A stretch of 64,000 nt of DNA from a virus. Lineage: Duplodnaviria; Heunggongvirae; Uroviricota; Caudoviricetes. Where the stretch lies: the IMG/VR virus record IMGVR_UViG_3300026286_000004; one strand, written 5' to 3'. Below the pieces are notes generated by a model. It searched no databases. It saw only the letters and a list, made by a program, of their open reading frames with translations, and was not told the origin of the DNA. Within the stretch, counting starts at the first letter, position 1; every line of letters begins with the position of its first letter. The position numbers and the translations under genes were made by a program. Positions 970 to 57,887 of this stretch are shown here, in pieces.

Positions 970-3900
970 ATGGCACGCGGCGGTATCAAGGACGTCCACT
1001 TCGACGTCACTCACCGGTGGGCGACGTCGATGGGGCGCGTCCACGACGGCGGGATCGTGCAGTCCTCTGACGGCGGTTCGACCTGGCTTTTTCGGTCCGT
1101 CCCGATGGGCCCGGTCGTTGATGCCCGGTCGCCGGCGGAATCCCTTCAGCCCGGCAGTCCGTTGATGCTCGCGTTCGACGAGCTGGCCGAACTCGCACCC
1201 CCGGCCCAGTTGAACCGGCGCCGGCTGGCGAAGTCCGGTTACCGCCGGATCCACTTGCTGCGGTTGCGGGTGCCGGCGAAGTATGTGCCGCCGGCGGAGT
1301 CGCAGCTGCGTGAGCACCTGTCGTCGACCTTCCACGACACGATGACGACCGCCTCCGTGCTGCTGATCGGGATCCAGTTGAAGGCGTCGGTGCGCCGGAC
1401 CGGCTGGCGCGACACGGCGGACGGGATCATTGCGTCCCTGACCGAGGGTGTCACTCCGGTCGGTGACTTCATGCGCGACGCCCGGCTGGTCGGCGACGCG
1501 ATGACGCGGTGCGGGCTGCAGGTGCCGACGGCGCAGCAGATGCAGCTGGCGAACTCGTGGTGGGCGGACTACGGCCAGCCGGACCCGCCGTACCTGATGC
1601 ACGCTGACCATCTGCACTCGTTCTCCTCGATGGAGGCGTTGCGGGCCGCCGCGAAGATCGGGCCGGACCGGTGCACCGACTGGGACAACATGCCCGGAAC
1701 GCACGCCCTCAGTTTCGCGACCGTTGCGGCGACGAACCTGTCGTACGTCCAAGCGGATAGCCCGTCCTCGCACTGGATGTCGGCGCTGCTGATGTCGGGT
1801 GCGCAGGCGATCTCGGTCCGCGGGCTGATCGAACCGCCGAAGGTGACCCGCGAGGAACTGCGGCGGATGCGCAAGGGCTACCAGGACGACATCCGGGAGC
1901 GCCTGAACGAGGGGAAGATGGAGCGCACCGAGCAGCTCGAGCTGGAACAGTCGCTGCAGGATGCGGAAGCCTTCTACGCCCAGGGCGGGACACCGACGCT
2001 GACGGACACCTCCGTCCTGGTCGCCTTTTCCGGCCGGCACCCGATCCACGGGTACGACCCGGTCCCGGTCGGGCAGCGTGCCGGGGTGACGCTCTACCCG
2101 ATGGTCAACCGGCAGCAAGAGGCATGGTCGGAGATGATGCCGTGCTCGAAGACGATGTCGAACCCGTATCTGCTGGACCTGCCGGCGCAGACGATCTCCT
2201 TCTCCGGCCTGCCGTCACTGTCGGTGGTCGGTGACAAGTCGGGAGCGCAGCCGGGATTCACCGAGACGGACAACCAGCCGGTCTTCATCGACCACATGGC
2301 GTCCGTCGACGAGGACACCCTCCCGATCGCGGTGATCGTGGGGCAGTCCGGGTCCGGTAAGGCGATGACGATTGACACGCGACTGCGGACGCCGTCCGGG
2401 TGGACGACGTTCGGCCTGGTCGATGTCGGCGACAAGGTCATCGGCTCGAACGGGCTGCCGTGCACGGTGCTGAACGTGACGACTCCGCAGGTCCGCGACG
2501 ACCTGCTCGAGGTCACCCTGAACGACGGCCAGTCGATGCGGGTCGACGGACAGCACCAGTTCGTCGCACGATTCCGCGGCTGGCCTGCCCGCGGGCTGCC
2601 GGAGCGGCTGGATGCGGCCAGCGGCCAGCTGGTCGAACTGGCCGAGTCGACCATCGACAAGGAGGTCGTGACCGCGCCGGCGCTGGCCCGGGAGTTGGCC
2701 GGCACGGGCGCAGGCGAGTTCTTCCCCTCCACGAACGCTGTCGCTGCGGCGCTGGCGATGATGGATGTCCGGCCGGGCACGCTCGGCCGGTACCGCAGAG
2801 CGGTCGCTCTGGCCGCCCTGGCAGCCCGGCTGAAGCAGCGTGCCAGCCATCCGGATGTCGCCGACGGCTGGATGGTCGTTTCGACGGCGGAGATGATCTC
2901 CACCGGTTCGGCGCAGCACTGGTCGCTGCCGTTGCCGGCCCCGGTCGCCGGCTCCGGGGAGAGCCTGGTTACCGATGCCCTTGCTGGGTGGCGCCCGTCG
3001 AAGGCGCTGCCGGAGCGGGTGATTTTCGCGCCAGTGGAGCAGCGCCGGGAACTGCTTCTGGACCTGATCCGCGGCCATGGGTCGATGCCGGGGGATTGCG
3101 AGTTCGCCGTGGCGGAGATGGCCGGCCTGTCCCCGGAAGGGGTCGAGTCGGTGCTGACGCTGGCCCGGTCGCTCGGGGTCTTCTCTGTCGAGGTCCCGTG
3201 GGGCGGTGGGGTCCGCCTCGCGATGACCGCGGACGGCTTCCCGGCCGTGTCATGCGTCGGGATCGAGACGATCGACGCGACCGGTGCGGACATCGTGTGC
3301 TGCATCGAGGTCGACTCGCCCGATTCGACGTTCCTGGTGGACGATCACGTGGTTACGCACAACACGCAGACGGCGCTCTTCTTGGCCGATCAGTACGCCC
3401 GGATGCGCACCAGCAGGGGCCAGCGCATCCCGATCGTGTTCGTCGACCCGAAGCTGGAGTCCAATCACTCCCGCACGGTCGCCCGGTCCGGCGGGACGGT
3501 CTTCTCGCTGGACCGGCTGATCACCTCCGACGGAGTGTTCGACCCGATCCGGTTCGCCAAGACGGCCGAGTCCGGGGCGTCCATGGCGGCCAGCATCATC
3601 CTCGAGGTCAACCCGTTCGGGTCGAAGATCGAGGACTACGAGACCGAGCTGATCCACTCGCTGAACTTCGGCGCCTCCAACGGGGCCCGGTGCACGATGG
3701 AAGCCCTGGCGATGGCTGAGACGGCCGGTCACGCATCCCGGGCGATGGTCGACCGGATCGAGAAGCTCGTTGCCGCGTCGACGTATTTCCGGGCGATGTG
3801 CGGCTCGGACCCGGAGGGTACCCCGCTGCAGGCGTCCGAGGGCATCACGTACATCATGCTCGGCTCGGCGCAGCTGAACTTGCCGGACCCGGACGCGAAG

Positions 3901-4491
3901 CACAAGGCCGACATCGGCCAGCGGACCGCGCTCGTGCTCGTCAAGGCGATGGTGTACGGCTCGATGATGGCGCTGGCCGGCCGGGAGGGCATCGTCATCC
4001 TGGACGAGGGCTGGATCTTCCTCGAGGCCGGCAAGTCCGAGGTCGTCCGTGCCGGGCGTCTGGCCCGGTCCTGGCAGGTGTGGCTGCTGCTGCTGACGCA
4101 GCGCGTCAAGGAGGTCGTGGACGCCGAGATCCAGCACTTCATCTCCCGCGGCGGGATCCTGCCGATGGAGGTGCAGTCGGAGGCGATCGCGGCGTGCCGG
4201 TTGTTCGGCCTGGAACCGACGGCGCAGCGACTGGAACGGATCACCGGGAAGGCGTCCCGCGCCGAGGGCGCATCGAACGCGCCGAACTGGAATTCGATGC
4301 GCGCGCTGCGTGACGACGACGGGAATGTGCTGCGTGGCTCGATCATGCTGTACTGCGACCAGAAGGGGCGCGCTGTCCCGGTCGAGGTGAAGATCCCACC
4401 GGCGTTCCTCGGGATCAGCTCGACGAGCCGGAAGGACATGCTCCGACGGGACAAGGCGTCCGCAGCAGTTCAGGATTCGTCCGCCGGTTAG
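970..4491 (+). CDS. VirB4/TrbE/TraC-family (conjugative T4SS-type) P-loop ATPase-like protein, interrupted by an intein
   Basis: 1173-aa ORF. Walker A GQSGSGK|T is split by an insertion at about residue 464. Walker B VILDEGW, then an LLLLTQ motif and an Arg-rich C-terminal domain. A ~460-aa N-terminal domain precedes the P-loop, as in VirB4-like ATPases. Confidence 0.6.
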   Translation: MARGGIKDVHFDVTHRWATSMGRVHDGGIVQSSDGGSTWLFRSVPMGPVVDARSPAESLQPGSPLMLAFDELAELAPPAQLNRRRLAKSGYRRIHLLRLRVPAKYVPPAESQLREHLSSTFHDTMTTASVLLIGIQLKASVRRTGWRDTADGIIASLTEGVTPVGDFMRDARLVGDAMTRCGLQVPTAQQMQLANSWWADYGQPDPPYLMHADHLHSFSSMEALRAAAKIGPDRCTDWDNMPGTHALSFATVAATNLSYVQADSPSSHWMSALLMSGAQAISVRGLIEPPKVTREELRRMRKGYQDDIRERLNEGKMERTEQLELEQSLQDAEAFYAQGGTPTLTDTSVLVAFSGRHPIHGYDPVPVGQRAGVTLYPMVNRQQEAWSEMMPCSKTMSNPYLLDLPAQTISFSGLPSLSVVGDKSGAQPGFTETDNQPVFIDHMASVDEDTLPIAVIVGQSGSGKAMTIDTRLRTPSGWTTFGLVDVGDKVIGSNGLPCTVLNVTTPQVRDDLLEVTLNDGQSMRVDGQHQFVARFRGWPARGLPERLDAASGQLVELAESTIDKEVVTAPALARELAGTGAGEFFPSTNAVAAALAMMDVRPGTLGRYRRAVALAALAARLKQRASHPDVADGWMVVSTAEMISTGSAQHWSLPLPAPVAGSGESLVTDALAGWRPSKALPERVIFAPVEQRRELLLDLIRGHGSMPGDCEFAVAEMAGLSPEGVESVLTLARSLGVFSVEVPWGGGVRLAMTADGFPAVSCVGIETIDATGADIVCCIEVDSPDSTFLVDDHVVTHNTQTALFLADQYARMRTSRGQRIPIVFVDPKLESNHSRTVARSGGTVFSLDRLITSDGVFDPIRFAKTAESGASMAASIILEVNPFGSKIEDYETELIHSLNFGASNGARCTMEALAMAETAGHASRAMVDRIEKLVAASTYFRAMCGSDPEGTPLQASEGITYIMLGSAQLNLPDPDAKHKADIGQRTALVLVKAMVYGSMMALAGREGIVILDEGWIFLEAGKSEVVRAGRLARSWQVWLLLLTQRVKEVVDAEIQHFISRGGILPMEVQSEAIAACRLFGLEPTAQRLERITGKASRAEGASNAPNWNSMRALRDDDGNVLRGSIMLYCDQKGRAVPVEVKIPPAFLGISSTSRKDMLRRDKASAAVQDSSAG
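2362..3363 (+). other. intein (334 aa) inserted between K and T of Walker A; class-3-like (Ala1, Cys in block F, Thr before the terminal HN); possible degenerate LAGLIDADG segment
   Basis: Block A is AMTIDTRLRTPSGW..VGDKV, block B is DGQHQF, block F is IVCCIEVD..STFLV and block G is DDHVVTHN followed by the +1 Thr. Excision restores GQSGSGKTQTALFL. The internal RRELLLDLIRGHGSM segment looks LAGLIDADG-like. Confidence 0.6.
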
Positions 4492-5778: not shown

Positions 5779-8700
5779 ATGGCAGCATCCGCCTCCCCGG
5801 CGACCCCCGGATTGACGATCAAGCGCATCCACACCACCGCGGGTGTTCACCCGTACGACGAGGTCGACTGGGAGGGCCGGGACGTCATCCAGACGAACCG
5901 GCGCACCGGCGAGACGATCTTCGACCAGCGTGGCGTGGAGTTCCCGACGTTCTGGTCGGAGAACTCATCGACGATCGCGGTCACGAAGTATTTCCGCGGC
6001 AAGCACGGCACCCCCGAGCGGGAGCACAGCCTCCGGCAGCTGATCGACCGGGTTGTGCTCACGTACGGCAAGGCGGGCCGCGAGCACGGCTACTTCGCCA
6101 CCGAGGATGACGCTGTCATCTTCGAGCACGAGCTGACGTACGCACTGCTGCACCAGATGTTCTCGTTCAACAGTCCGGTCTGGTTCAACGTCGGCACGAA
6201 GGCGAAGCAGGCCGTCTCGGCTTGCTTCATCCTGTCGGTCGCCGACTCGATGGAGTCGATCCTGAACTGGTACACCGAAGAGGGCATGATCTTCAAGGGC
6301 GGCTCGGGCGCCGGGGTGAACCTGTCCGCCATTCGCTCCTCCAAGGAGTTGCTCTCCTCCGGTGGCACGGCGTCCGGCCCGGTCTCGTTCATGCGTGGTG
6401 CGGACGCCTCCGCTGGCGGAATCAAGTCCGGTGGCGCGACCCGTCGTGCCGCCAAGATGGTCGTCCTCGACGTCGACCACCCCGACATCGTCGAGTTTGT
6501 CGAGACCAAGGCCCGCGAAGAGGACAAGATCCGCGCCCTGCGTGACGCCGGCTTCGACATGGACCTCGGCGGCAAGGACATCAACTCCGTCCAGTTCCAG
6601 AACGCCAACAACTCGGTCCGGGTCACGGACGAGTTCATGCGAGCCGTCGAGGCCGGGTCCGGCTTCGACTTGATCGCCCGCACCACCGGCGAGGTCGTCA
6701 AGTCCGTCGACGCCCGCGACCTGTGGCACCGGATCGCGAAGGCCGCGTGGGAGTGCGCCGACCCGGGCGTCCAGTACGACGGCACGATCCAGGACTGGCA
6801 CACCAACCCGGTCACCGGCCGGATCACCGCGTCCAACCCGTGTTGCTTCGTCGGGGACACCCTGGTGATGACCGGCGACGGGGATTACCGCACGATCCGC
6901 GGGATCACCGAGGATGTGGCCGCCGGGATCGACGTCGACGTCATGTCGTGGGATGCCGCCGAACGCTGCTTCACGATCAACCAGGTCAAGAAGGGCTGGG
7001 TCGCCGGCCGGACGAACAAGCTGGTCCGGCTGCGCACCTCCGCCGGGGCGGCAACCGTTTCGACGCCGGAGCACAAGCACATGCTCGTTGACGGCACCTG
7101 GGTGGAGGCGCAGGACCTGCTCTCCGGGATGCAGCTGCGGGCGCATGCCGACGAGATCGTCACGGTTGTCTCGGCGACGCTGTCCACGGACGGGCCTGAG
7201 GTCGACGTGTACGACCTCGAGGTCGAAGACACCCACACCTTCCTCGTCGGTGAACTGGGCCGCGACCCGGTCGTCGTGAGCAACAGCGAGTACATGTCCA
7301 TCGACAACAGCTCGTGCAACCTCGCGTCGATCAACCTGCTGAAGTTCCTGCGCGACGACGACACGTTCGATGCGCAGCGGTTCGCCGACCTGTGCGAGCT
7401 GGTCATCACCGCGATGGACATCTCGATCTGTTTCGCGGAGTTCCCGACGAAGGCGATCACGAAGAACACCCGCGACTATCGTCAGCTCGGCATCGGGTAC
7501 GCGAACCTCGGCGCGCTGCTGATGGCGACCGGGCACCCGTACGACTCCGACTCGGGCCGTCAGGTTGCGGCCAGCATCACGTCGCTGATGTCGGCTGCCT
7601 CGTACCGCCGGTCCGCGGAGCTGGCCGGCGTGTTCGGACCGTACGCCGGGTATAAGAAGAACACCGGCGCGCACCTGCGGGTCATCGGCAAGCATCACGC
7701 GGCGAACATCGACCTTCGGGTGACGGACGCCTTCGCCGCCCCGATCCACGACCTCGCGGGAGCCGAATGGGAGGCTGCGGAGCGTCTCGGCGTCCGTCAG
7801 GGCTTCCGGAACGCGCAGATTTCACTACTCGCGCCCACTGGCACGATCAGCTTCTTGATGAACTGCGACACGACCGGTATCGAGCCGGACTTCTCCCTGG
7901 TGAAGTTCAAGAAGCTCGTCGGCGGCGGGTCGATGAAGTTCGCGAACCTGACGATCCCGCGGGCGCTGCGCAAGCTCGGCTACGACGATGACACCGTGTC
8001 CGCGATCGTCGCGCACATCACCGAGCACGGCCACGTCCTGGACGCCCCCGGCTTGAAGACCGAGCACTACGCGATCTTCGACACCGCGATCGGGGCCCGG
8101 TCGATCTCCCCGATGGGCCACGTCAACATGATGGTTGCCTGCCAGCCGTTCCTCAGTGGCGCCATAAGCAAGACGATCAACCTTCCGGAGAGTGCGACCG
8201 TTGAAGATATCGAGGCCGTCTACATGGCCGGCTGGAAGCTGGGCCTGAAGGCTCTGGCGGTGTACCGGGACAACTGCAAGGTTGGTCAGCCGCTGTCCGA
8301 CGGAGCGGTCAAGCCGGTCGCTGTCGCTGACCCTGCGGCGCCCGCTGCAGCCGTCCCGGCGACGATCACGGCACCGGTCCCGGTCCGTGTTCGGCTGCCG
8401 CGCAAGCGGGTCAGTGAGACGACGTCGTTCACGGTCGGTGGGGCTGCCGGGTACTTGACGGCGGGCACCTATCCGGACGGTCGTATCGGGGAGTTGTTCA
8501 TGAAGTTCGGCAAGCAGGGCTCGACCCTGGCCGGCGTCATGGACTCGTTCTCGATCGCGATCTCCATCGCGCTGCAGTACGGGGTGCCGTTGGAGACGTT
8601 GGTGGAGAAGTTCACGAACACCCGGTTCGAGCCGGCCGGCCTGACAGACGACGCGGATATCCGGATAGCGCAGTCGCCGATGGACTACGTCTTCCGCCGG

Positions 8701-9033
8701 CTTGCTCTCGACCACATGGACTTCGAGACCCGGGCGTCGTATGGCATCTACACGGCAGCGGAGCGGGCCCGTCACCTCGAGACCGGGTCGTACGAGCCCG
8801 AGCTGGTCGAGGAGGAGATGGACGGATTGTCCGACGGCATCGGTGAAGACATGGTCCCGGCTCCGAAGCCGGCCCCGGCCGCGCTCCCGGCGCCGGTCCG
8901 CCATGACGCGCTGAACGAGGGCTTGCGCAAGTCCGAGGATGCCCCGCTGTGCTTCACCTGCGGGGTACGCATGGTGAGAGCTGGAAGTTGTTTCTCGTGC
9001 GAATCGTGCGGGGCGACGTCCGGTTGTAGCTAG
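5779..9033 (+). CDS. nrdJ: class II (adenosylcobalamin-dependent) ribonucleotide reductase NrdJ, intein-containing
   Basis: The N-terminal region and the NPC catalytic-cysteine motif are recognised from memory as NrdJ-like. The ORF carries a C-terminal CxxC..CxxC Zn ribbon and is 1084 aa including the intein. Confidence 0.85.
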   Translation: MAASASPATPGLTIKRIHTTAGVHPYDEVDWEGRDVIQTNRRTGETIFDQRGVEFPTFWSENSSTIAVTKYFRGKHGTPEREHSLRQLIDRVVLTYGKAGREHGYFATEDDAVIFEHELTYALLHQMFSFNSPVWFNVGTKAKQAVSACFILSVADSMESILNWYTEEGMIFKGGSGAGVNLSAIRSSKELLSSGGTASGPVSFMRGADASAGGIKSGGATRRAAKMVVLDVDHPDIVEFVETKAREEDKIRALRDAGFDMDLGGKDINSVQFQNANNSVRVTDEFMRAVEAGSGFDLIARTTGEVVKSVDARDLWHRIAKAAWECADPGVQYDGTIQDWHTNPVTGRITASNPCCFVGDTLVMTGDGDYRTIRGITEDVAAGIDVDVMSWDAAERCFTINQVKKGWVAGRTNKLVRLRTSAGAATVSTPEHKHMLVDGTWVEAQDLLSGMQLRAHADEIVTVVSATLSTDGPEVDVYDLEVEDTHTFLVGELGRDPVVVSNSEYMSIDNSSCNLASINLLKFLRDDDTFDAQRFADLCELVITAMDISICFAEFPTKAITKNTRDYRQLGIGYANLGALLMATGHPYDSDSGRQVAASITSLMSAASYRRSAELAGVFGPYAGYKKNTGAHLRVIGKHHAANIDLRVTDAFAAPIHDLAGAEWEAAERLGVRQGFRNAQISLLAPTGTISFLMNCDTTGIEPDFSLVKFKKLVGGGSMKFANLTIPRALRKLGYDDDTVSAIVAHITEHGHVLDAPGLKTEHYAIFDTAIGARSISPMGHVNMMVACQPFLSGAISKTINLPESATVEDIEAVYMAGWKLGLKALAVYRDNCKVGQPLSDGAVKPVAVADPAAPAAAVPATITAPVPVRVRLPRKRVSETTSFTVGGAAGYLTAGTYPDGRIGELFMKFGKQGSTLAGVMDSFSIAISIALQYGVPLETLVEKFTNTRFEPAGLTDDADIRIAQSPMDYVFRRLALDHMDFETRASYGIYTAAERARHLETGSYEPELVEEEMDGLSDGIGEDMVPAPKPAPAALPAPVRHDALNEGLRKSEDAPLCFTCGVRMVRAGSCFSCESCGATSGCS
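6844..7284 (+). other. mini-intein (147 aa, no endonuclease domain) inserted immediately after the catalytic Cys of NPC
   Basis: Sequence context is ASNPC|CFVGDTLVMTGDG...VYDLEVEDTHTFLVGELGRDPVVVSN|SEY. It has Cys1, a C-terminal Asn and a +1 Ser. The penultimate residue is Ser rather than His. Confidence 0.75.
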
Positions 9034-22678: not shown

Positions 22679-25339
22679 ATGAATGAGATCATTCCGACCG
22701 GCCAGGCCGCCCTGGATGCCCGGGCCGATGCTGCCGCGGCGAAGGCCGAGGCGACCCGCCGGAAACTAGAGCTGGAAGCGCTGGAACGCGCAGCGAAGGC
22801 CGACCTCGCGGCGCAGCGTGCCGAGCTGGACCGCCAGCACCGGGAGCAGATGGCTGCCCTGGCTGCGCGGATGGCTCCGGTGGAGGCAGAGCTGGCCGTG
22901 TTGAAGAAGAAGGCCGAGTTGATCGACCTCTACCTGGGTCGCGGCGAGAATGTCGAGATGCTGCGAGGCGGCAAGCCGGCACCGGCGGATACCCCGCTGG
23001 TGGTCCGCTCGACGGTCCTGTTCGCCGACGAGGAGTCGCTCATCCTTGTCGAACACGGCGGCCTCGACTTCCGCACGATGGGAGCTTTCCTCGACTGGAT
23101 CGTCGCCGCGCCGGAGAACCTGGACCGGGTCGTCCCGGACCAGCGTGGCATCGTCGTGGTCAAGCCGTCCCGGCAGGCCCGCGATTACGGCGACCCGTGG
23201 CTGAACAGCACGGTGATGACCGAGAACGAGCGTCCGCACTGGATCCTCCGCAACGGGGAACGGGTATATGTGCTGATCACCGGCGTCGACCTCCCGGTGG
23301 GCCGGCGGATCGTGCCGGCGGCCGATGAGTTCACGGCCATGTTCACCAAGAACGGAAAGCCGCTGGAACCCGGATCCAAGAAATGGATCGAAGCAGAAGA
23401 TCAGGCCGAGGCGAAGCAGAAGCACTTCATGCGGCTGATGCTCGTCATCCAAGGACTGGTCGACCGGTCGGTGGTCTTCCGGCCACTGCCCGACGGCGGA
23501 CTGAACGTCATGTCCCTGGCCGCACAGGATGCTGGACATGTTGTCCTGCTCGACGAAGAAGCCAAGGCGCTGACCGACGGCCGGCCGAGCTTCCGCGCCT
23601 GGCAGAAGTCGCTGAACTCCCGGCTCCGGCCTGGAATGCGGGTCATCCTGGCAACCGGATCGGACGCCTTCGACGACGACGACAAATCGCGCAGTAGCGA
23701 CGGCTGGGGCTACCGGCACCTGCGGATCACTCCGGAGAGGTGTGGGTCGCTGCCGGAGCAGGACGCTCCGCATCTGATCGAGCAGCACAAAGGCGGCCGG
23801 TTCATCATCCGGTTCGCCCGCACCGACGAGGTGTGGCGGCGCAATGTGCCCGTCCCGGACAAGCCGGGTTACATCTACCGCGGCGAGCGCCCGGTGGTCC
23901 CATCGAAGCGGGCGTCGTTGTGGTTCACCGGCGAAGAGTCGTGGGTGCTGCCGTTCGACGCGGCGACCCGAGACGAGCTGGCCTACTACCTGCACCGCCG
24001 CAGCGACCGCCAGGACTACCTGAACATGGTGCCCGTGCTACGCGCCGCCCTGGCCGCGAAAGACGCTGAGGCGGCGCAGGAGGCCGGTTTCCGAGGCTAT
24101 CTGGCTGCCCAGCTCGGCGACGACGGACACCTGCTGGATGAGCTGGTGGCCTGGTTCAAGACCGCTCACGGTTCGGCCCGCCCGCTGACCGGTGACGGCC
24201 CGCATGAAGCGAAGGCCGCGAAGGCGATCCTGACCGAATACGCCCGCCGGCAGAAGACGGTGGCGCTGGCCGGCACGGACGCTGCCGTGGTCGCCGGCGC
24301 CCGGGCTTCGATTGCGGATGTGCTCGCAATCGTCCGGCTCGCCTCCGGGGCCTACCGGGCGTTCACGCTTACCGATCCTGATCGGGGTCCATGGCTGACG
24401 ACGCATGCCCTGGATGCCACTGGCGAAGTCACCTCGACGATCCCGTGGAGCATCATCCCGGCGGCGGCCCTGCCGCGTATGGATGTGTTGTGGTCGGACC
24501 CGAAATGGGATGACGTCCCGCTCCGGCCGAAGCTGGCTGCGTTCCTGACCACTCCGGAGATCCAGAACATGATCGCCAACGGTCGGGCATGGCTGGACGA
24601 AAAGGGCGCGAGGCCGATCGCGGCAGTCCTGACGTGGGGCAAAGATTACTCATCGCAGCGGGACGCGGTCACCGTGTACGGCTGGAAGCAAGGCGTCGAC
24701 TTCACCGACACCAGCGATCCGGTCGATGACCACATGATGTCTGTCGTGGTTTACTGGCGCCGGGATGCCAAAGGTGGGCTGCGCACCGAATGTCATGACC
24801 GTAAGGCCCTGTGGTACCGCTACGAGCACGAGGGGCGTCGGCGTCCGTGGCGCGAACGTGGTAGCCATTGGTTCCGCGCCGGCCAGTCCGCCGAGCTGGT
24901 CTGGTGCGACCCGGATCAGGTCGCACTGGTCGACGGCTACGTTGAAACCCAGGAAGCACGGTCCAGGAAATCCATGGAGCAGTCAGACCGTCGCGCCAGC
25001 GCGACTCTTGTGCTGCGGAACCGCCTGGAACGGGCGTGGCTGGAAAGGGAGACCGCACGGGAGCGTGCCAGCTTCGTGATCGACTTCGGCTACGACGCCG
25101 GAGCCGACCTGTGGGAACACCACCTGCGTACCGTGAAACTGGCCCAGAGGTATCGGGAGCCCCGGTGGGCGTTCGCCGTGTTCAGTGCCTGCGTCGGCGC
25201 CGGAGTGGACCTGGCGGGTAAGACCGTCGGCCAGATCGTCGAGATGTACCTCGGCGAGCTGACCACCGGCGAGAAGACAATCGACGCCGGTGACTTCGCC
25301 GATCTCGTCATGCCCGGCGATCAGCCCGCGGACGTGTAG
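22679..25339 (+). CDS. large hypothetical protein (886 aa) with an N-terminal coiled coil
   Basis: Long clean ORF. The first ~80 aa are Ala/Glu/Leu-rich and heptad-like. No recognisable catalytic motif. Confidence 0.6.
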   Translation: MNEIIPTGQAALDARADAAAAKAEATRRKLELEALERAAKADLAAQRAELDRQHREQMAALAARMAPVEAELAVLKKKAELIDLYLGRGENVEMLRGGKPAPADTPLVVRSTVLFADEESLILVEHGGLDFRTMGAFLDWIVAAPENLDRVVPDQRGIVVVKPSRQARDYGDPWLNSTVMTENERPHWILRNGERVYVLITGVDLPVGRRIVPAADEFTAMFTKNGKPLEPGSKKWIEAEDQAEAKQKHFMRLMLVIQGLVDRSVVFRPLPDGGLNVMSLAAQDAGHVVLLDEEAKALTDGRPSFRAWQKSLNSRLRPGMRVILATGSDAFDDDDKSRSSDGWGYRHLRITPERCGSLPEQDAPHLIEQHKGGRFIIRFARTDEVWRRNVPVPDKPGYIYRGERPVVPSKRASLWFTGEESWVLPFDAATRDELAYYLHRRSDRQDYLNMVPVLRAALAAKDAEAAQEAGFRGYLAAQLGDDGHLLDELVAWFKTAHGSARPLTGDGPHEAKAAKAILTEYARRQKTVALAGTDAAVVAGARASIADVLAIVRLASGAYRAFTLTDPDRGPWLTTHALDATGEVTSTIPWSIIPAAALPRMDVLWSDPKWDDVPLRPKLAAFLTTPEIQNMIANGRAWLDEKGARPIAAVLTWGKDYSSQRDAVTVYGWKQGVDFTDTSDPVDDHMMSVVVYWRRDAKGGLRTECHDRKALWYRYEHEGRRRPWRERGSHWFRAGQSAELVWCDPDQVALVDGYVETQEARSRKSMEQSDRRASATLVLRNRLERAWLERETARERASFVIDFGYDAGADLWEHHLRTVKLAQRYREPRWAFAVFSACVGAGVDLAGKTVGQIVEMYLGELTTGEKTIDAGDFADLVMPGDQPADV

Positions 25340-45679: not shown

Positions 45680-48600
45680 TCAGAAGCTCCATTCGTCCGC
45701 AGTTTTTGCCGGCACCGGCACCGGGTCCGGGACGTCGCCGAAGTTCCAGTCGTCGGCGTTGGCCGGCTTCGGTGCGGGCCGCTCGACCGGTTCGGAAACG
45801 AAGTCCCAGCCCTCGTCGTCTGCGTCGGCGAGGTCGACGTCGTTGACCACGTCCTTGACCACCTGCTCGACCGGATCTTCGCCGAAGTCCCAGCCGTCGT
45901 CGGCCGGTTCCGATTTGTTGTCCGGCCGCGCGTCCGGGGCGTCGATGGACCACAGGTCGTCGTCGTCGTCGGTCTCTGTCTCGACTGGCTCCGACGCGCC
46001 GAAGACATCCCACGCATCGTCCGTTTCCGGCTCGCTGACCGGGCTGGCGGGCTCGCTGGCAGCCTCCTGCTCCAGACCGGGCTGATCGGTCACGGGCTGC
46101 CCGTCCAGTGCTTCTGCGGCCTCGGAAGCCTCGTCGGCAAAGTCGTCCAGGTCCAGCTCTATCTCTACGGCGTTCTCCAGATCGCCAAGGTCCAGCTCGA
46201 TCTCGTCTTCCAGGTCCCATGCCTCGTCCAGGTCGATGTCCTCGACGGCCGGGCCGCGGTCCTTGCGGACCTGGATGAACGGGGACAGGTCTACGGGCAC
46301 GACCGGTTCGCGCTCCTGCGCGATCTTCGCACCCATCACGGCAGTATCGGTGAAGGCGACCTGCACCGTGTGCGGCATACCGGTCGACGGTTCGTAGATG
46401 CCACGGCCCGGCGGGATCGCGCCCGGGAAGATCGGGGCTTCTTCGGCACGCCGCAGCGCCGACATCCGGTCGCCGGAGGTGGTCGCGCCGACGAGCAGCC
46501 GGGCCAGGTTCGTCTTCAGGCTGCCGAGGCCGCCGATCTTCGCCAGGTCGTCCTGGCGCAACTTCTGGCCGCCGAGCACCAGCGAGACACCCGCGGACCG
46601 GGCCTCCCGGGTGATCTTCCCGGCCAGCGACCCGATCGTGTCCTTGAAGCTGTTCTCCAGCAGCAGCAGTTGCCGCTCTTCCTCGAGGTCCGGGTCGTCC
46701 ATCGGGGTCTTCGGCACGGATGACTTCTCGATCAACGACGTGAACTCGTCGATGAACACGACCAGCCTGCGCGGACGAACCTCATCCGGCAGCTTGTCGA
46801 TGGACTCGGTCCCGTGCTGCTTGTTCAGATCCTTGCGGCGCAGTACCTCCTGGTAGGCCCACCGCATCGCCGCTGCACCGTTCTGCCACGTGTCGGCCGT
46901 CGCGAGAGCGAACGACGTCGCGTACTTGAAGTCGGCGGCCCCCTTGACCGGGTCGACGACGATCGCGTCATGCCCGGCCAGCAGCACGCCGGTCAGCAGG
47001 TTCGTCATCGCGACCGACTTACCTGACCCGGACCCACCGATCACGCCCAGGTGCGGCGACTCCTTCATGTTCCAGTTGTCCGGGACTCCGGCCACGTTCA
47101 CGGCCAGCGGGATCGACAGCGACCCGTCCGGGATGCCGTCCATGATCAGTTCGACGCGCGAGGGCATCGGGTCCCGCTCGGAGACCTGCAGCACCAGCCG
47201 GGCGGCCGTGGTCCGCTCCCGGTCAAGCTCGATGAAGTCGTTCCCGGTCGAGGTCCGCAACGTCGGCAGGATCTTCACGATCCCCGGAATCGACGCACCC
47301 TGCGGCAGGTCGAACGTCAACACGGTCACCTGCGGGTTCGTCTCGACCGGCTCCACCTTCGCCAGCACCGGGGTGAGCGCGCCCGGGATGTCGAGTTTCG
47401 ACTTCAGCCACGCCTGGTCCCAGTCGAGGGCCACAACCTTGTCGCGGTCCTTGACGGAGACGATCTCGACGGACGACGGTCTCGCGCCGGCGTAGATGAT
47501 GCACCCGTCCGCGGCAGCATCCACGCGCAGCCACGGCGTCGCCAGTGCCTGCCGCATCCGGTCCGCCGCGCCGCGCACGTCCGCGAGGGTCACCCCGCCA
47601 TACAGCCGCAGCGTGATCTCCCAGACGGACGGCTCGGCGAACCGCCTGTTCCCGGACGGCTCCGGGGTCAGCGCGCGAACCGCGACGACCTCGGGGCGCG
47701 CGAGACGAGCCGCATCGAAGGCATGGTTGACGTGCGAGGCGAGCAACCACTGGTACGCCGGCGTCGGCCGGGATGCGGACACGACCTTCTCCGGTGCCGT
47801 CGGCAGGCCCGGTTCGGAGGACCACGTGACGCAGAACGCGGTTGCGTGGCGGGTCGCCTTCCGGCCCACGCTCGGCGGGGTCCACCCGGTCACAGACACG
47901 AACGGGGCCGCGTTCAACGTGGACGCCAGTTTCGTCTCCGCCTTCGGGTTGCCGTGCTCCATCGGGTCCATGCCCTTGCGTACCTGGAAGACGGTGTGCT
48001 TGATCCGCTTCCCCTGGTAGGTGTCCTCGCTCGAGACCCGGGGCGCGATCGTAGGCGGGTTCACCCCCTGCTTGAGCACCTCCGTCCAGACGCCGTTCCA
48101 CCAGTCCTCTTCGAAGATCTCGCCCAGCGCGTCCGGGAATTTCGGGTCGATCGTCTTCAGATCGTCCGTCGCGGCGCCGAGGAACAGGTGCCCGCCGTCG
48201 GGTGACCGGTGGTCGATCGCAGCGTCCAGTCGCGTCCCGCCGCCGAGCATCGGAGCGAACCCGAGGGCGCGTGCCGTGGTCCAGCCCGGGCCTTCCGGCC
48301 ACGCCCCGTTCACCTGCCACATCGCGACCGGTGAGTCGTCGGTGTGCATCGCCGTGACCGCGGTGACCATGACGGGCGCGACCTTGAGCGCGTCGCAGAC
48401 CTGCTGAACCCAGGTGCGGACTGCGGTGTCCAGGACCTCCGGGGATGTTGCCGGATCGCCGATGTCGGGGATGTCGCCGGACGGGGAGATGACGATCGCG
48501 AACTTGCGTGGGTGGATCGTCCCGGTGACCTCGACCCCGTCCACGTCGTTCGGTCTCGGGATGAGTGTCATGTCCACGCCGGCGCCGACGGTCGGCGCGA

Positions 48601-50131
48601 TCTTCGGCGCCTTCAACCGCATCGTCTCGGACGACTCGGCACCGAGCGTCTCGAACTCGTAGACCGTCCACGTCCCGACGGACCGGACCTCGTACAGGTC
48701 CGGCGCCGGGTCGACCTTCAGGATCTCCCACCGGGCGCGCCACTGGTCTTCGGCGGCGAGCATCAGCACGATCGGGCGGACGCTCTCGTCCTTCAACGGC
48801 ATGTCGTCATCGACCGCACCGACGAACATCGACCCGCCGTCGCGGCGGTGGTCGACCACGGCCGGCATACCGGAGACCGCCATGAACCGGTCGCCGAACT
48901 TGTTCGACCCGCCGTCGGTGACCCGCTTGGCGACCTTTCCCGACCGGGCCGCCTCCCATCCGGGGCCGTCCGGCCAGTCCGCGGTGACTCGCCACAGCGC
49001 CTTCGTCGCACCGTCGGCGTGCATGCCTTCGACGCCGGTGACGACGGCCGGGGGCAGGCCGAGCGCGATGCATGTGCGCCGCATCAGGACGTCGATGACG
49101 ACCTGGACGATGTCCGCCGGGGTGCCCGGGTCGGTCAGATCCGGGGCGTTCCCGGACGGCGCGGTCACGATGGCGAACTTCTGCGGGTGGATCGTGCCGG
49201 GCAGCGGTTGCCCGCCGGCCTCGTTCGGTCGGGTCAGGACGGTCACCTCGACGCCGCCGCCGACGGTGGTCGCGACCTTGTCGGCCTTGTCGCGGACCTC
49301 CGCCGCGCCACCGACGCTGGTTGCGATGAAGTCGTCGATCTGCCAGTCGCCGACCATGACCGAGTCGATCAGCTGTGGCAACGGATCGAACTTCAGCGAC
49401 TCCCACCGCGGGCGCCACTCCCGCCGGGCCCGGACGACCGCGCGCCACCGGGCCAGCGCCTTGTTCGACCAGGCCGGGTACAGCCCGGCGAGGAAGCCGA
49501 GGAACGCAAGCCCGGAGACGATGACCATCGGCGGGCCGAACTCGAGGCCGGGGACGGCCTCTTCGATCTTCGGCGGCCCGTACTTCCCGGCCGCAGCGCC
49601 CGCCCCGGCGCCGGCCAGGCCGGACAGCAGTGCCAGCGGGCGGAACGGGAAGGTGTTCAGTCGCAGGCCGGGGGATCCGGACTTGCGGCGCATCGCGGCC
49701 GTCATCACGGCGACCACGATGAACATTGCTGGCGGGTTCGCCAGCGCGTACACCGGCTCCTTCACCGGCAACGCGATCGAGGTCCACGCAGCCGCGACCG
49801 CAGCGAACCACGACGCGCGCGGCGGCCACCCGGGCAGCCAGTCGAGCGTCGGGACGAGCAGGCGCCACCGCAGGCTGCGCCACATCTGGTACGACGCCTG
49901 CAGGTCTTCCTCCTTCTCGCCCGCGGGTTGCGCGCCGCGGCCCGGGACCTTCCGCCCGGTCATCAGCGGCGGCTTCTCCAGGATTGCCGAGATCACGAGC
50001 GCAGCGAGCAGGACCGGGACGCCCGGGTAGCCCTTCCACGCGGCCACGCCGATACCGATGATGCCGACGAAGAACGCGAACGGCGCCAGCGACGCCGACC
50101 CGGCCTGCTGCTGGCTGCGAGTGGCAGGCAT
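45680..50131 (-). CDS. FtsK/SpoIIIE-family DNA translocase-like giant membrane protein (TraB/TcpA-like), with a duplicated internal domain and an acidic Trp-rich C-terminal tail
   Basis: N-terminal TM helices. Two repeats of about 250 aa carry the TIHP(Q/R)KFAI(V/I)..PSG..PD motif. Walker A GSGKSVAMTNLL and Walker B LVVFIDEF. The tail holds six (D/E)(D/E)xW(D/N)F motifs and ends DEWSF. Start ATG 50131 overlaps the upstream TAA. Confidence 0.75.
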   Translation of the reverse strand: MPATRSQQQAGSASLAPFAFFVGIIGIGVAAWKGYPGVPVLLAALVISAILEKPPLMTGRKVPGRGAQPAGEKEEDLQASYQMWRSLRWRLLVPTLDWLPGWPPRASWFAAVAAAWTSIALPVKEPVYALANPPAMFIVVAVMTAAMRRKSGSPGLRLNTFPFRPLALLSGLAGAGAGAAAGKYGPPKIEEAVPGLEFGPPMVIVSGLAFLGFLAGLYPAWSNKALARWRAVVRARREWRPRWESLKFDPLPQLIDSVMVGDWQIDDFIATSVGGAAEVRDKADKVATTVGGGVEVTVLTRPNEAGGQPLPGTIHPQKFAIVTAPSGNAPDLTDPGTPADIVQVVIDVLMRRTCIALGLPPAVVTGVEGMHADGATKALWRVTADWPDGPGWEAARSGKVAKRVTDGGSNKFGDRFMAVSGMPAVVDHRRDGGSMFVGAVDDDMPLKDESVRPIVLMLAAEDQWRARWEILKVDPAPDLYEVRSVGTWTVYEFETLGAESSETMRLKAPKIAPTVGAGVDMTLIPRPNDVDGVEVTGTIHPRKFAIVISPSGDIPDIGDPATSPEVLDTAVRTWVQQVCDALKVAPVMVTAVTAMHTDDSPVAMWQVNGAWPEGPGWTTARALGFAPMLGGGTRLDAAIDHRSPDGGHLFLGAATDDLKTIDPKFPDALGEIFEEDWWNGVWTEVLKQGVNPPTIAPRVSSEDTYQGKRIKHTVFQVRKGMDPMEHGNPKAETKLASTLNAAPFVSVTGWTPPSVGRKATRHATAFCVTWSSEPGLPTAPEKVVSASRPTPAYQWLLASHVNHAFDAARLARPEVVAVRALTPEPSGNRRFAEPSVWEITLRLYGGVTLADVRGAADRMRQALATPWLRVDAAADGCIIYAGARPSSVEIVSVKDRDKVVALDWDQAWLKSKLDIPGALTPVLAKVEPVETNPQVTVLTFDLPQGASIPGIVKILPTLRTSTGNDFIELDRERTTAARLVLQVSERDPMPSRVELIMDGIPDGSLSIPLAVNVAGVPDNWNMKESPHLGVIGGSGSGKSVAMTNLLTGVLLAGHDAIVVDPVKGAADFKYATSFALATADTWQNGAAAMRWAYQEVLRRKDLNKQHGTESIDKLPDEVRPRRLVVFIDEFTSLIEKSSVPKTPMDDPDLEEERQLLLLENSFKDTIGSLAGKITREARSAGVSLVLGGQKLRQDDLAKIGGLGSLKTNLARLLVGATTSGDRMSALRRAEEAPIFPGAIPPGRGIYEPSTGMPHTVQVAFTDTAVMGAKIAQEREPVVPVDLSPFIQVRKDRGPAVEDIDLDEAWDLEDEIELDLGDLENAVEIELDLDDFADEASEAAEALDGQPVTDQPGLEQEAASEPASPVSEPETDDAWDVFGASEPVETETDDDDDLWSIDAPDARPDNKSEPADDGWDFGEDPVEQVVKDVVNDVDLADADDEGWDFVSEPVERPAPKPANADDWNFGDVPDPVPVPAKTADEWSF

Positions 50132-50703
50132 TACGCCACCAGTGACCGGATGCGTTGCACGATGCGCGGGTCGGCCTGCTTCGTGACAGGGACTGCCCGC
50201 CGCACGACACGCTCGAGCGCTGCGCCGTGGACCAGCCTCGCGGACGGGAACGTCGCCGCCCACAGCGACACCTTCCCCTCCCGCCGGGACGGCCACACGA
50301 CGACGACCGGGACGGTCAGGTGCACGTCATACATGGACAGGTACGCCGTGAACGCCTCCTGCGCCATCTGCACGGACTTCTTGTCGCACGCCGCGAACGG
50401 CTGGAAACCGCGGCGGGTCTTCCCGCCGAACGTCCACAGGAAACCCGGCTTCCACGACTTGCTGTCGATGAGCATGACGCGGTTGCTGGCGATGACCACG
50501 TGGTCGATGTTGATCGACATGCCGGGGATCGGGACACTCACGTCATGCATGACCGTGATCTCGGTACTGCCGGCCATCTGGTTGAGTACGTACGCGGTCG
50601 CCGCCTCGCCGCGGGTGCCGGCGCTGACCGTGCCCGCGTTCGTGGCCCACCTGGTGTCACCGGAGAGCGAGGTCGCGGCCCGTCCGATGATCTGCCCGCT
50701 CAC
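50131..50703 (-). CDS. NERD-like (nuclease-related domain) protein
   Basis: NIDHVVIASNRVMLIDSKSWKPG matches the NERD core. GTG start. Confidence 0.5.
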   Translation of the reverse strand: MSGQIIGRAATSLSGDTRWATNAGTVSAGTRGEAATAYVLNQMAGSTEITVMHDVSVPIPGMSINIDHVVIASNRVMLIDSKSWKPGFLWTFGGKTRRGFQPFAACDKKSVQMAQEAFTAYLSMYDVHLTVPVVVVWPSRREGKVSLWAATFPSARLVHGAALERVVRRAVPVTKQADPRIVQRIRSLVA

Positions 50704-57775: not shown

Positions 57776-57887
57776 CGTCGCGCTTCCCGGGGAGACGGAT
57801 GATCACGATCAGCAGGACGAGCGCGGTCACCACTGTCGCGGCGCACGAGAGCGCGATGACACCGATCGCATACAGGACGGTCGCCAT
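57768..57887 (-). CDS. small membrane peptide (39 aa)
   Basis: MATVLYAIGVIALSCAATVVTALVLLIVIIRLPGKRDDD. The start overlaps the recG stop (TGATG). Confidence 0.3.
   Translation of the reverse strand: MATVLYAIGVIALSCAATVVTALVLLIVIIRLPGKRDDD

What the first reader, a model, noticed from the sequence alone, without database searches (positions are those of the whole stretch)
2362..3363. Class-3-like intein (Ala1 ... C in block F ... T-H-N) splitting the Walker A lysine and threonine of a VirB4-like ATPase
The insertion lies exactly between K and T of GQSGSGK|T. The intein starts with Ala (AMTIDTRLRTPSGW), so it has no N-terminal Cys or Ser nucleophile. It carries Cys in block F (IVCCIEVD) and Thr before the terminal HN, which are the hallmarks of the rare class-3 splicing mechanism. 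It may also contain a degenerate LAGLIDADG segment (LLLDLIRGHG). Inteins in conjugative-ATPase P-loops are unusual, and the host protein cannot bind ATP until splicing occurs.
Basis: partly seen in the sequence, partly recalled or inferred. Interest (0 to 1): 0.65.

Follow-up and report, generated by a model that had tools for sequence, protein, structure and literature searches.

The report
Class-3-type intein in VirB4-like ATPase

Summary
ORF 970-4491 (+) encodes a 1173-aa precursor in which residues 465-798 (nt 2362-3363) interrupt the Walker A motif: GQSGSGK|AMTIDT...VVTHN|TQTALF. Sixteen homologues of 812-869 aa lack the insert and have a contiguous GxxGxGK(T/S).

The centre is a decayed LAGLIDADG endonuclease. 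Motif 1 and its half-domain are deleted, and motif 2 reads LLLDLIRGHG, with no acidic residue.

The spliced protein models as full-length TrwK/VirB4 (Foldseek E 3e-22).

K|T is the classic P-loop insertion site, and VirB4 and IcmO inteins are already published. In this ATPase family, 10 of 28 species-representative genome loci carry class 3 inteins, at two sites.

Verdict: real, correctly interpreted, a new member of a known kind, of low to moderate interest. Splicing itself is inferred, not shown.

The parts
970..4491 (+). Precursor gene: VirB4-like (AAA_10) ATPase interrupted by the intein; 1173 aa.
   Evidence: ORF with GC1/GC2/GC3 of 0.66/0.49/0.90, typical of real genes here. The identical protein is called on 17 public contigs.
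970..2361 (+). N-extein, aa 1-464: VirB4-like N-terminal domain plus the first part of the ATPase domain.
   Evidence: Aligns to intein-free homologues. The model of the spliced protein matches TrwK/VirB4 over its full length.
2341..2361 (+). First seven residues of the Walker A motif, GQSGSGK. [quoted passage not shown]
   Evidence: Sequence. G461, G463 and K464 are invariant in the 16-sequence family alignment.
2362..3363 (+). Intein, 334 aa, class-3-type.
2362..2400 (+). Block A (AMTIDTRLRTPSG). Ala1 means there is no N-terminal nucleophile.
   Evidence: In 207 related inteins the first residue is Ala in 111 and Cys or Ser in only 6.
2527..2568 (+). Block B (GQSMRVDGQHQFVA): Asp62 at B:7, His65 at B:10, Phe67 at B:12 in place of the signature Trp.
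   Evidence: Alignment to 6BS8 DAQHQW. Among relatives B:12 is W in 195, F in 8 and other residues in 4.
2575..3231 (+). Central insert, about intein aa 72-290: a helical, probably DNA-binding region followed by a remnant LAGLIDADG half-domain. The motif 1 remnant DALAGW is at 2974-2991. The motif 2 remnant LLLDLIRGHG is at 3052-3081.
3289..3336 (+). Block F (DIVCCIEVDSPDSTFL). Cys314 at F:4 is the predicted initiating nucleophile (nt 3301-3303). Cys313 at F:3 is unique to this intein.
   Evidence: Cys314 aligns to the catalytic Cys of 6BS8 and 6RIX (VRCVEVD). F:4 is Cys in 180 of 180 relatives, and none of them has Cys at F:3.
3343..3363 (+). Block G (DHVVTHN): Thr332 at G:5, His333 at G:6, Asn334 at G:7.
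   Evidence: Among relatives G:5 is Thr in 176 of 180, G:6 is His in 165, G:7 is Asn in 178.
3364..4491 (+). C-extein. Thr+1 (3364-3366) completes the Walker A motif GQSGSGKT. The second family intein site, FVDPK (3439-3453), is empty here. Walker B GIVILDEGW is at 3988-4014. The stop codon is included.
   Evidence: In the spliced protein the AAA_10 match runs unbroken over residues 453-725. In the precursor it covers only 822-1059.

Best explanation
Nucleotides 2362-3363 encode a 334-residue intein of the class 3 clade, translated in frame inside a VirB4-like (AAA_10) ATPase. The host element is a roughly 161-kb actinobacterial megaplasmid or ICE-like element.

The intein separates Lys464 from the Thr that completes the Walker A motif (GQSGSGK|T). 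The precursor therefore should not bind or hydrolyse ATP (inferred).

The inferred splicing pathway is the established class 3 one:
1. Cys314 (block F:4), activated by His65 (B:10) with Thr332 (G:5), attacks the Lys464-Ala465 peptide bond and carries the N-extein as a thioester.
2. The N-extein is passed to the hydroxyl of Thr+1.
3. Asn334 cyclises and releases the intein.
4. An O-to-N shift leaves a native Lys-Thr bond. This yields an 839-aa ATPase with an intact P-loop and a free intein of about 37 kDa.

The signature Trp at B:12 is replaced by Phe, which probably lowers the rate or makes splicing temperature-sensitive rather than abolishing it.

The intein's LAGLIDADG homing endonuclease has decayed. 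One half-domain is deleted and the catalytic acidic residue is lost. The element is therefore probably no longer mobile and is inherited with its host gene.

Shown here: the insertion, its exact boundaries, the fold, homology to proven class 3 inteins, the residues present, the endonuclease decay, and the VirB4-like fold of the spliced product. Inferred: that it splices, the order of chemical steps, loss of homing, and a role in conjugation.
For: Insertion:
- Sixteen homologues of 812-869 aa have a contiguous GxxGxGK(T/S).
- Excision restores collinearity and one unbroken AAA_10 match (residues 453-725, 44.2 bits against a cut-off of 27.5).

Hint fold and class 3 kinship:
- phmmer hits Msm DnaBi1 (6BS8) at E 1.3e-10 and MchDnaB1 (6RIX, 6RIY) at about 1e-9, with both termini aligned.
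- The AF2 model has pLDDT 92.3 and pTM 0.89.

Catalytic set:
- Ala1, His65, Cys314, Thr332, His333, Asn334 and Thr+1 are all present.
- In 207 related inteins, F:4 Cys is invariant (180 of 180) and G:5 is Thr in 176 of 180.
- In the same set, +1 is Thr or Ser in 173 of 180, -1 is Lys in 147 of 207, and position 1 is a nucleophile in only 6.

Phe at B:12:
- It occurs naturally in 8 of 207 relatives, 4 of them at this same site. One further example is Brevibacterium antiquum.
- The nearest relatives have Trp, so the change arose more than once.
- W67F in the MP-Be DnaB intein kept about 50% splicing at 30 °C, and splicing was rescued at 15 °C (PMC2807308).

Maintenance:
- The ORF is intact and the protein is identical on 17 contigs.
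- A variant allele has 8 synonymous and 1 non-synonymous differences. Three synonymous ones and no non-synonymous ones fall in the intein.
- The intein's GC3 (0.88) matches that of the exteins (0.90-0.93).

Endonuclease decay.

VirB4-like host:
- The top 13 Foldseek hits are TrwK/VirB4 of R388 over about 850-900 columns (E 2.6e-22, TM 0.52/0.54). VirB4 of Thermoanaerobacter follows.
- Homologues lie on actinobacterial megaplasmids, including pMP7017.
- An FtsK/TrwB-like ORF lies in the same window.
Against: - No splicing data exist for this protein.
- The canonical WCT triplet is not met, because B:12 is Phe. Trp B:12 to Ala blocked splicing in three class 3 inteins (PMC5222942), and W67F halved it at 30 °C in MP-Be DnaB (PMC2807308). 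Slow or conditional splicing, or none, cannot be excluded.
- Pfam and NCBIfam intein models do not detect the element.
- The polymorphism sample is tiny (9 differences), so the evidence for selection is weak.
- VirB4 membership rests on fold and on the broad AAA_10 family. A sequence profile did not reach solved VirB4 structures.
- PLSDB types the homologous plasmids as non-mobilizable.
- No relaxase was identified in the window. Only about half of the window's ORFs were scanned.
Confidence: 0.82

Rival explanations
1. It is a splicing-dead or badly impaired intein. The W-to-F change at B:12, perhaps with other drift, has inactivated it. The ATPase would then be made only as a non-functional precursor, and the gene would be on its way to becoming a pseudogene.
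For: B:12 is Phe. [quoted passage not shown] W67F gave only about half spliced product at 30 °C (PMC2807308). A dead class-3-like intein is documented (Arth_1007, PMC3196547). The endonuclease has already decayed.
Against: Every catalytic residue is intact. There is no frameshift or stop codon in 3.5 kb. The exteins keep the family's invariant residues. Phe recurs independently at this position in relatives with intact host genes. The few polymorphisms in the intein are all synonymous. Phe was the best-tolerated substitution tested (PMC2807308).
Confidence: 0.1
2. It splices, but by a class 2 (KlbA-like) route. Thr+1 would attack the N-terminal junction directly, without a Cys314 thioester intermediate.
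For: Ala1 is shared with class 2 inteins. The strict WCT signature is incomplete (FCT).
Against: F:4 Cys is invariant in 180 of 180 relatives. The closest sequence and structural relatives are experimentally proven class 3 inteins (PMC5222942, PMC7664689). Even Bvi IcmO, which has Cys+1, could not use the class 2 route (PMC5222942).
Confidence: 0.04
3. The segment is not an intein but a lineage-specific domain that stays in the mature ATPase.
For: Pfam and NCBIfam give no Hint match.
Confidence: 0.01

Closest known systems
Mycobacterial DnaB-b (DnaBi1) class 3 inteins: Msm DnaBi1 (PDB 6BS8), Mch DnaB1 (6RIX, 6RIY), Mle DnaB
   Different: Those are mini-inteins of 139-145 aa in the replicative helicase, with Trp67. 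This one is 334 aa with a decayed endonuclease, has Phe67 and a Cys-Cys pair at F:3-F:4, and sits in a VirB4-like ATPase. It also lacks the Cys48 that pairs with the catalytic Cys in the Msm DnaBi1 redox switch.
Mycobacteriophage Bethlehem DnaB intein (MP-Be DnaB), the founding class 3 intein
   Same: Similar size (341 aa), with a central endonuclease-type domain between blocks B and F. It has no N-terminal nucleophile, has Cys F:4, T-H-N and Thr+1, and lies in an ATPase gene (PMC2807308).
   Different: It starts with Pro1 and has Trp67. Its W67F mutant is the only experimental proxy for the natural Phe seen here (about 50% splicing at 30 °C; splicing rescued at 15 °C).
Bvi IcmO intein (Burkholderia vietnamiensis G4 plasmid) and the five VirB4 (COG3451) inteins listed by Novikova et al. 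2016
   Same: These are inteins in plasmid-borne, type IV secretion-related ATPases. Bvi IcmO is a proven class 3 intein (PMC2807308, PMC5222942). VirB4 inteins are catalogued in Firmicutes and Proteobacteria (PMC4760082, Table 3).
   Different: Bvi IcmO has Cys+1 and a different flank (ARSLGF|CITFA), which is not the GK|T site. I did not examine the catalogued VirB4 inteins for class or insertion site. They come from other phyla, not from this actinobacterial AAA_10 family.
TerL1-a and other 'classic' P-loop K|T inteins (mycobacteriophage terminases, MCM-a, RFC-S, RadA)
   Same: The insertion lies exactly between the invariant Walker A Lys and the nucleophilic Thr. [quoted passage not shown] About 70% of inteins lie in ATP-binding proteins (PMC5050341, PMC4760082).
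   Different: The host proteins differ, and many of those inteins are class 1.
Sibling inteins in the same VirB4-like family (e.g. P0002, P0005, P0022, P0010; Arthrobacter terrae, Oerskovia enterophila, Brevibacterium spp.)
   Same: Same site (GxxGSGK|T/S) and same clade. Those of 320-360 aa share the same truncated central domain over its full length.
   Different: Most have Trp at B:12 (30 of 34 at this site). Many are 555-654 aa with an intact LAGLIDADG domain. Ten proteins also carry a second class 3 intein at DPK|, a site that is empty here.

Membership tests
Intein (Hint-fold protein-splicing element) | In-frame insertion in a conserved host protein that is absent from homologues, with precise boundaries | tested here: met
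   Sixteen homologues of 812-869 aa lack it. Excision restores GQSGSGKT and collinearity.
Intein (Hint-fold protein-splicing element) | Hint fold | tested here: met
Intein (Hint-fold protein-splicing element) | C-terminal His-Asn followed by a Ser, Thr or Cys nucleophile at +1 | tested here: met
   ...VVTHN|T.
Intein (Hint-fold protein-splicing element) | Demonstrated protein splicing | not testable with these tools
   Needs expression and detection of the spliced product.
Class 3 inteins (Tori et al. 2010) | No Cys, Ser or Thr at intein position 1 | tested here: met
   Ala1.
Class 3 inteins (Tori et al. 2010) | Cys at block F position 4 | tested here: met
   Cys314 aligns with the catalytic Cys of 6BS8 and 6RIX. 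It is invariant in 180 of 180 relatives.
Class 3 inteins (Tori et al. 2010) | Thr at block G position 5 | tested here: met
   Thr332.
Class 3 inteins (Tori et al. 2010) | Trp at block B position 12 (the W of the WCT triplet) | tested here: not met
   Phe67 (VDGQHQF against DAQHQW). F occurs in 8 of 207 relatives. I therefore call it class-3-type with an FCT triplet, assigned by homology and catalytic residues. It is not a canonical WCT intein.
Class 3 inteins (Tori et al. 2010) | Ser or Thr at +1 | tested here: met
   Thr+1.
Class 3 inteins (Tori et al. 2010) | Groups by sequence and structure with experimentally proven class 3 inteins | tested here: met
Class 3 inteins (Tori et al. 2010) | Obligate block F thioester branched intermediate | not testable with these tools
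   Needs C314A and N334A mutants and thiol-decay assays.
LAGLIDADG homing endonuclease (intein-borne) | Two LAGLIDADG motifs, each ending in a catalytic acidic residue, in two alpha-beta-beta-alpha-beta-beta-alpha half-domains | tested here: not met
VirB4 / TrwK-type type IV secretion ATPase | Protein of about 800 aa with a VirB4 N-terminal domain plus a C-terminal RecA-like ATPase with Walker A and Walker B motifs | tested here: met
   The spliced product is 839 aa. Its AF2 model (pLDDT 83.4) matches full-length TrwK/VirB4 chains as the top 13 Foldseek hits (E 2.6e-22, TM about 0.5 over about 850-900 columns) and VirB4 of Thermoanaerobacter. Walker A is GQSGSGKT and Walker B is GIVILDEGW.
VirB4 / TrwK-type type IV secretion ATPase | Sequence-family membership (Pfam AAA_10 PF12846; NCBIfam VirB4 models) | tested here: inconclusive
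   AAA_10 is met (44.2 bits against 27.5; all 16 family members hit it). AAA_10 is broader than VirB4, however. The only NCBIfam VirB4 hit is partial (28 bits against a cut-off of 590). A PDB profile search reached only FtsK, EccC and HerA P-loops.
VirB4 / TrwK-type type IV secretion ATPase | Encoded alongside other conjugation components (coupling protein, relaxase, channel proteins) on a transmissible element | tested here: inconclusive
   An FtsK/SpoIIIE plus TrwB-like 1538-aa ORF lies 41 kb away. Homologues lie on actinobacterial megaplasmids, including pMP7017, next to a lysozyme-type hydrolase and an FtsK-like gene. No relaxase was identified, the neighbouring ORFs have no Pfam hits, and PLSDB types those plasmids as non-mobilizable.

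The most novel reading that the evidence does not exclude
The natural FCT triplet (Phe at B:12), together with a vicinal Cys313-Cys314 pair at the catalytic position, might make this intein a conditional switch. No Cys at F:3 was seen in 180 relatives. Splicing would be slowed or blocked at higher temperature, as in the W67F mutant phenotype. It could also be blocked under oxidising conditions by a Cys-Cys disulfide or by metal binding at the nucleophile. Assembly of an active VirB4-like ATPase, and hence DNA transfer by the element, would then be gated after translation by the environment.
Probability: 0.08. Interest if true: 0.55.

Novelty: new member of a known kind. Interest (0 to 1): 0.25.

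Why it matters
The finding adds one more class-3-type intein at the classic Walker A K|T site. This example is in an actinobacterial VirB4-like ATPase family that standard annotation labels only 'ATP-binding protein', and whose inteins Pfam and NCBIfam models miss.

Three points have modest value:
- It is a natural example of Phe replacing the signature Trp at B:12. This supports the view that Trp has a packing or tuning role rather than a catalytic one, and it offers a natural test case for temperature-dependent splicing.
- The host family is an intein hot spot. It has two class 3 insertion sites (GK|T and DPK|T/S), occupied in about a third of the species-representative loci sampled. That makes it useful for studying intein gain, endonuclease decay and loss.
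- Annotation pipelines will mis-size and under-annotate these genes.

None of this changes what is known about how inteins work.

Tried and rejected
Searches that led nowhere:
- Pfam and NCBIfam scans of the intein gave no family, even at E<=1.
- The word-indexed homologue search with the intein gave nothing. It was probably swamped by Ala-rich candidates. The exhaustive search found 3617 hits.
- Megablast of the gene against phages and plasmids gave no match.
- tblastn of the spliced ATPase against 50,697 phage records gave no match, so I have no evidence that the element is a phage.
- tblastn of the intein against phages gave only N-terminal Hint matches, in terminases, PhoH and helicases.
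- An exact 51-nt junction search in genome contigs and viral contigs gave no match.
- An exact-protein look-up of the 1538-aa ORF found nothing on record.
- A PDB sequence-profile search with the extein family reached only generic P-loop, FtsK, EccC and HerA hits. Fold comparison was needed to reach VirB4.

Ideas considered and rejected:
- A retained domain rather than an insertion. Intein-free homologues rule this out.
- A class 1 mechanism. Ala1 rules this out.
- An active LAGLIDADG endonuclease. One motif is deleted and the acidic residue is lost.
- Coding on the opposite strand. ORFs 2094-3305(-) and 2215-3078(-) have GC1/GC2 patterns (0.51/0.68 and 0.88/0.51) unlike real genes here, so they are shadow ORFs of a 68% GC sequence.
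- A recent horizontal arrival. The intein's GC and GC3 match those of the host gene.
- Further class 3 inteins in the window. A six-frame profile search finds only this one.
Full report
**1. The observation.** ORF 970-4491 (+) encodes 1173 residues. They are flanked by ...VIVGQSGSGK and TQTALFLADQ.... The coordinates, Ala1, the CC in IVCCIEVD, the T-H-N end and the LLLDLIRGHG segment (intein residues 231-240) are all as described. The + frame has the codon-position GC pattern of real genes in this 68% GC window (0.66/0.49/0.90). The long antisense ORFs over the same stretch do not, and are shadow ORFs.

**2. It is an insertion.** A search with the conceptually spliced 839-aa protein returned 20 relatives.
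- Fifteen of them are 812-869 aa and align across the junction. With the spliced query they form a 16-sequence alignment in which G461, G463 and K464 of the Walker A motif are invariant.
- Excision makes the protein collinear with them (GQSGSGK-TQTALF-LADQ against GQSGSGK-TITMLN-LADQ in P0006).
- Pfam AAA_10 matches only residues 822-1059 of the precursor. In the spliced protein it matches residues 453-725 without a break, at 44.2 bits against a cut-off of 27.5.

**3. It is a Hint-fold intein of the class 3 clade.**
- phmmer against all PDB chains hits Msm DnaBi1 (6BS8, E 1.3e-10) and MchDnaB1 (6RIX and 6RIY, about 1e-9). Both ends align: residues 1-68 (ALALDTPLPTPSGWTTMG...DAQHQW) and the C-terminal VRCVEVDNP...PTHN.
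- An AlphaFold2 model built on a 10-sequence alignment is confident (pLDDT 92.3, pTM 0.89).
- From these alignments, His65 is B:10, Cys314 (the second Cys of VCCIEVD) is F:4, Thr332 is G:5, His333-Asn334 end the intein, and Thr is +1.
It is Phe67, so the triplet is F-C-T, not W-C-T.

**4. How typical it is.** An exhaustive HMMER search of 1.84 billion cluster representatives found 3617 proteins at E<=1e-3. I extracted 207 inteins from the best 150 hits plus the extein relatives:

| Position | Result |
|---|---|
| Position 1 | Ala in 111; Cys or Ser in only 6 |
| B:10 | His in 206 of 207 |
| B:12 | Trp 195, Phe 8, other 4 |
| F:4 | Cys in 180 of 180 |
| G:5 | Thr in 176 of 180 |
| G:7 | Asn in 178 of 180 |
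| +1 | Thr 132, Ser 41 |
| -1 | Lys in 147 of 207 |

The element is thus an ordinary member of a very large clade, apart from Phe67 and a Cys at F:3 that none of the 180 relatives has. The relatives with Phe at B:12 are not its nearest relatives, so W-to-F has arisen repeatedly.

**5. Will Phe67 allow splicing?**
- In the founding study of class 3 inteins, W67F in the MP-Be DnaB intein gave about equal precursor and spliced product at 30 °C, and splicing was rescued at 15 °C. Most other substitutions gave more than 90% precursor at 30 °C. The authors assigned Trp mainly a packing role next to His B:10 (PMC2807308).
- Trp-to-Ala blocked splicing in three mini-inteins (PMC5222942).
- Here all catalytic residues are intact, the 3.5-kb ORF is uninterrupted, and the identical protein is encoded on 17 public contigs.
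- A variant allele differs at 9 nucleotides, 8 of them synonymous. Three synonymous and no non-synonymous changes fall in the intein. This sample is small and the evidence is weak.
- I conclude that the intein most likely splices, possibly slowly or in a temperature-dependent way. This is inference.

**6. Mechanism (established for the clade, inferred here).**
1. Cys314 attacks the Lys464-Ala465 bond and forms a thioester branch.
2. The N-extein moves to the Thr+1 hydroxyl.
3. Asn334 cyclises and releases the intein.
4. An O-to-N shift restores Lys-Thr.

The sources are PMC2807308, PMC5222942 and PMC7664689; the last describes a Cys-His-Thr triad. Until splicing occurs the Walker A motif is split, so the precursor should be inactive as an ATPase. 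This was argued for DnaBi1 and shown for a RadA P-loop intein, as cited in PMC6195587.

**7. The central domain.**
- Aligned with sibling inteins of 495-578 aa, this intein lacks the first LAGLIDADG motif (PY(V/L)LGAWLGDG is reduced to DALAGW) and the half-domain that follows it.
- It retains the second motif in degenerate form. LLQGLMDTDG has become LLLDLIRGHG, with His where the catalytic Asp would be.
- The long siblings hit Pfam LAGLIDADG_3 and Hom_end at exactly that position. This intein does not.
The endonuclease should be inactive and the intein immobile (inferred).
- The intein's GC and GC3 (0.70, 0.88) match those of the exteins (0.68, 0.90-0.93), consistent with long residence.

**8. 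The host protein and its surroundings.**
- The AF2 model of the spliced protein (pLDDT 83.4) has TrwK/VirB4 of the R388 type IV secretion system as its top 13 Foldseek hits, over about 850-900 columns (E 2.6e-22, TM 0.52/0.54). VirB4 of Thermoanaerobacter and then HerA, TrwB and FtsK follow. 'VirB4-like' is supported by fold.
- Sequence evidence alone is weaker: the broad AAA_10 family, a partial NCBIfam hit, and no VirB4 match in a PDB profile search.
- Homologues lie on actinobacterial megaplasmids: Arthrobacter, Pseudarthrobacter and Curtobacterium plasmids of 375-608 kb, and Bifidobacterium pMP7017-type plasmids of 169-198 kb. They also lie in chromosomes of Aeromicrobium, Microlunatus, Brevibacterium and others.
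- The local gene order is conserved: PDDEXK nuclease, small ORFs, an ORF of about 340 aa, the ATPase, an ORF of about 380-420 aa. A DEAD/Helicase_C_2 helicase follows directly in Aeromicrobium. In this element NrdJ, ThyA and the DHFR fusion lie between.
- The window belongs to contigs of 160,903 and 161,078 bp from independent assemblies, including MAG GCA_036736985.1.
- The window is densely packed with small, mostly unannotated ORFs. It also carries NrdJ, ThyA, a DHFR fusion, an NAD-dependent ligase, exonucleases, helicases and an FtsK/TrwB-like 1538-aa ORF.
- The ATPase has no relative in 50,697 phage records.
- I read the element as a megaplasmid or ICE-like element. A role in conjugation is plausible but not shown.

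**9. Comparison with what is known.**
- Insertion between the invariant Walker A Lys and the following Thr or Ser is described as the 'classic' P-loop intein site (PMC5050341). It is the site of the mycobacterial DnaB-b inteins (FGVGK|STLGL, PMC5222942).
- Most class 3 inteins were already noted to sit in ATPase P-loops (PMC2807308).
- Inteins in VirB4 (five, COG3451) are tabulated in PMC4760082. The plasmid-borne Bvi IcmO intein is a proven class 3 intein (PMC5222942).
- Within this ATPase family, 45 of the 61 proteins in hand carry class 3 inteins. At least 34 are at the GK| site and 15 at a second site, DPK|, 26 residues downstream. Ten proteins have both.
- Among 28 loci from species-representative genomes, 10 carry one or both. 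These include isolates of Brevibacterium aurantiacum, B. picturae, B. antiquum (Phe at B:12), Arthrobacter terrae and Oerskovia enterophila.

**10. Verdict.** It is a class-3-type intein, assigned by homology, fold and catalytic residues. It fails the strict WCT signature at one position. It carries a decayed LAGLIDADG endonuclease and sits at the classic K|T site of a VirB4-like ATPase. It is a new member of a known kind, and interest is low to moderate (0.25). The most novel reading still open is that Phe67 and the unique Cys313-Cys314 pair make splicing conditional and so gate the ATPase. I put that at about 8%.

Noticed in passing
window 5779-9033 (+); intein at 6844-7284: The class II ribonucleotide reductase (NrdJ) two genes downstream carries a second, unrelated intein. 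It is a 147-aa class 1 mini-intein (ASNPC|CFVGDTL...VVVSN|SEYMS) with weak Pfam PT-HINT and Intein_splicing hits. The element therefore has at least two inteins of different classes within 5 kb.
   Followed up: partly
window 3298-3303 (intein Cys313-Cys314): There is a vicinal Cys-Cys at block F positions 3-4. The second Cys is the predicted catalytic nucleophile. None of 180 related inteins has Cys at F:3 (most have Arg, Gln or Lys). It could be incidental, or it could be a redox or metal-sensitive feature.
   Followed up: partly
window 3439-3453 (FVDPK), and related proteins P0004, P0021, P0023-P0027, P0030, P0033, P0074; loci L026, L031, L035-L037: The same ATPase family has a second class 3 intein site, after DPK and 26 residues downstream of the Walker A site. 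It is empty in this window. It is occupied in 15 of the proteins examined, and 10 proteins carry inteins at both sites. Intein sizes range from about 220 to 650 aa, a series from intact LAGLIDADG domains to mini-inteins.
   Followed up: partly
window 45680-50296 (-): A 1538-aa ORF has FtsK/SpoIIIE and TrwB-type (type IV coupling protein) matches around residues 1058-1187. It is a candidate DNA-translocating partner of the VirB4-like ATPase. An exact-sequence look-up found no record, so the true start codon may differ. The six-frame profile search of the window found no class 3 intein here. No search for other intein classes was run, so the ORF's large size remains unexplained. The Aeromicrobium locus L007 has a 1539-aa protein with a LAGLIDADG_3 hit.
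   Followed up: partly
window 61209-62537 (-): A 442-aa protein with WGR and poly(ADP-ribose) polymerase catalytic domains, i.e. a bacterial PARP-like enzyme on this element. Nearby are a RecG-like helicase (57887-60562, -), a MoxR-like AAA_5 ATPase (51940-53103, -) and a VWA/DUF2201 protein (63061-63831, -).
   Followed up: no
whole window; contigs Ga0102832_1000176 (160,903 bp) and DAINLJ010000004.1 (161,078 bp): Two independent assemblies give contigs of nearly the same length, so this may be a complete replicon of about 161 kb. Gene content is mostly same-strand small ORFs without Pfam hits, plus NrdJ, ThyA, a DHFR-metallophosphatase fusion, an NAD-dependent ligase, RNase_T exonucleases, helicases and IrrE-like peptidases. 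That looks phage-like or megaplasmid-like, but the genes scanned included no phage structural genes and the ATPase has no phage homologue. Circularity, the replication module and a relaxase were not examined.
   Followed up: partly
window 22679-25339 (+): An 886-aa ORF with good coding statistics and no Pfam match. It is found on at least 24 public contigs. Function unknown.
   Followed up: no
plasmid hits H17-H21 (Bifidobacterium longum megaplasmids, 169-198 kb) and H15 (Curtobacterium sp. MCBD17_040, locus L009 7992-11648): The homologous 'ATP-binding protein' genes are 3.6-4.2 kb long and match in two pieces. This suggests that they also carry unannotated inteins. I did not check them individually.
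   Followed up: no
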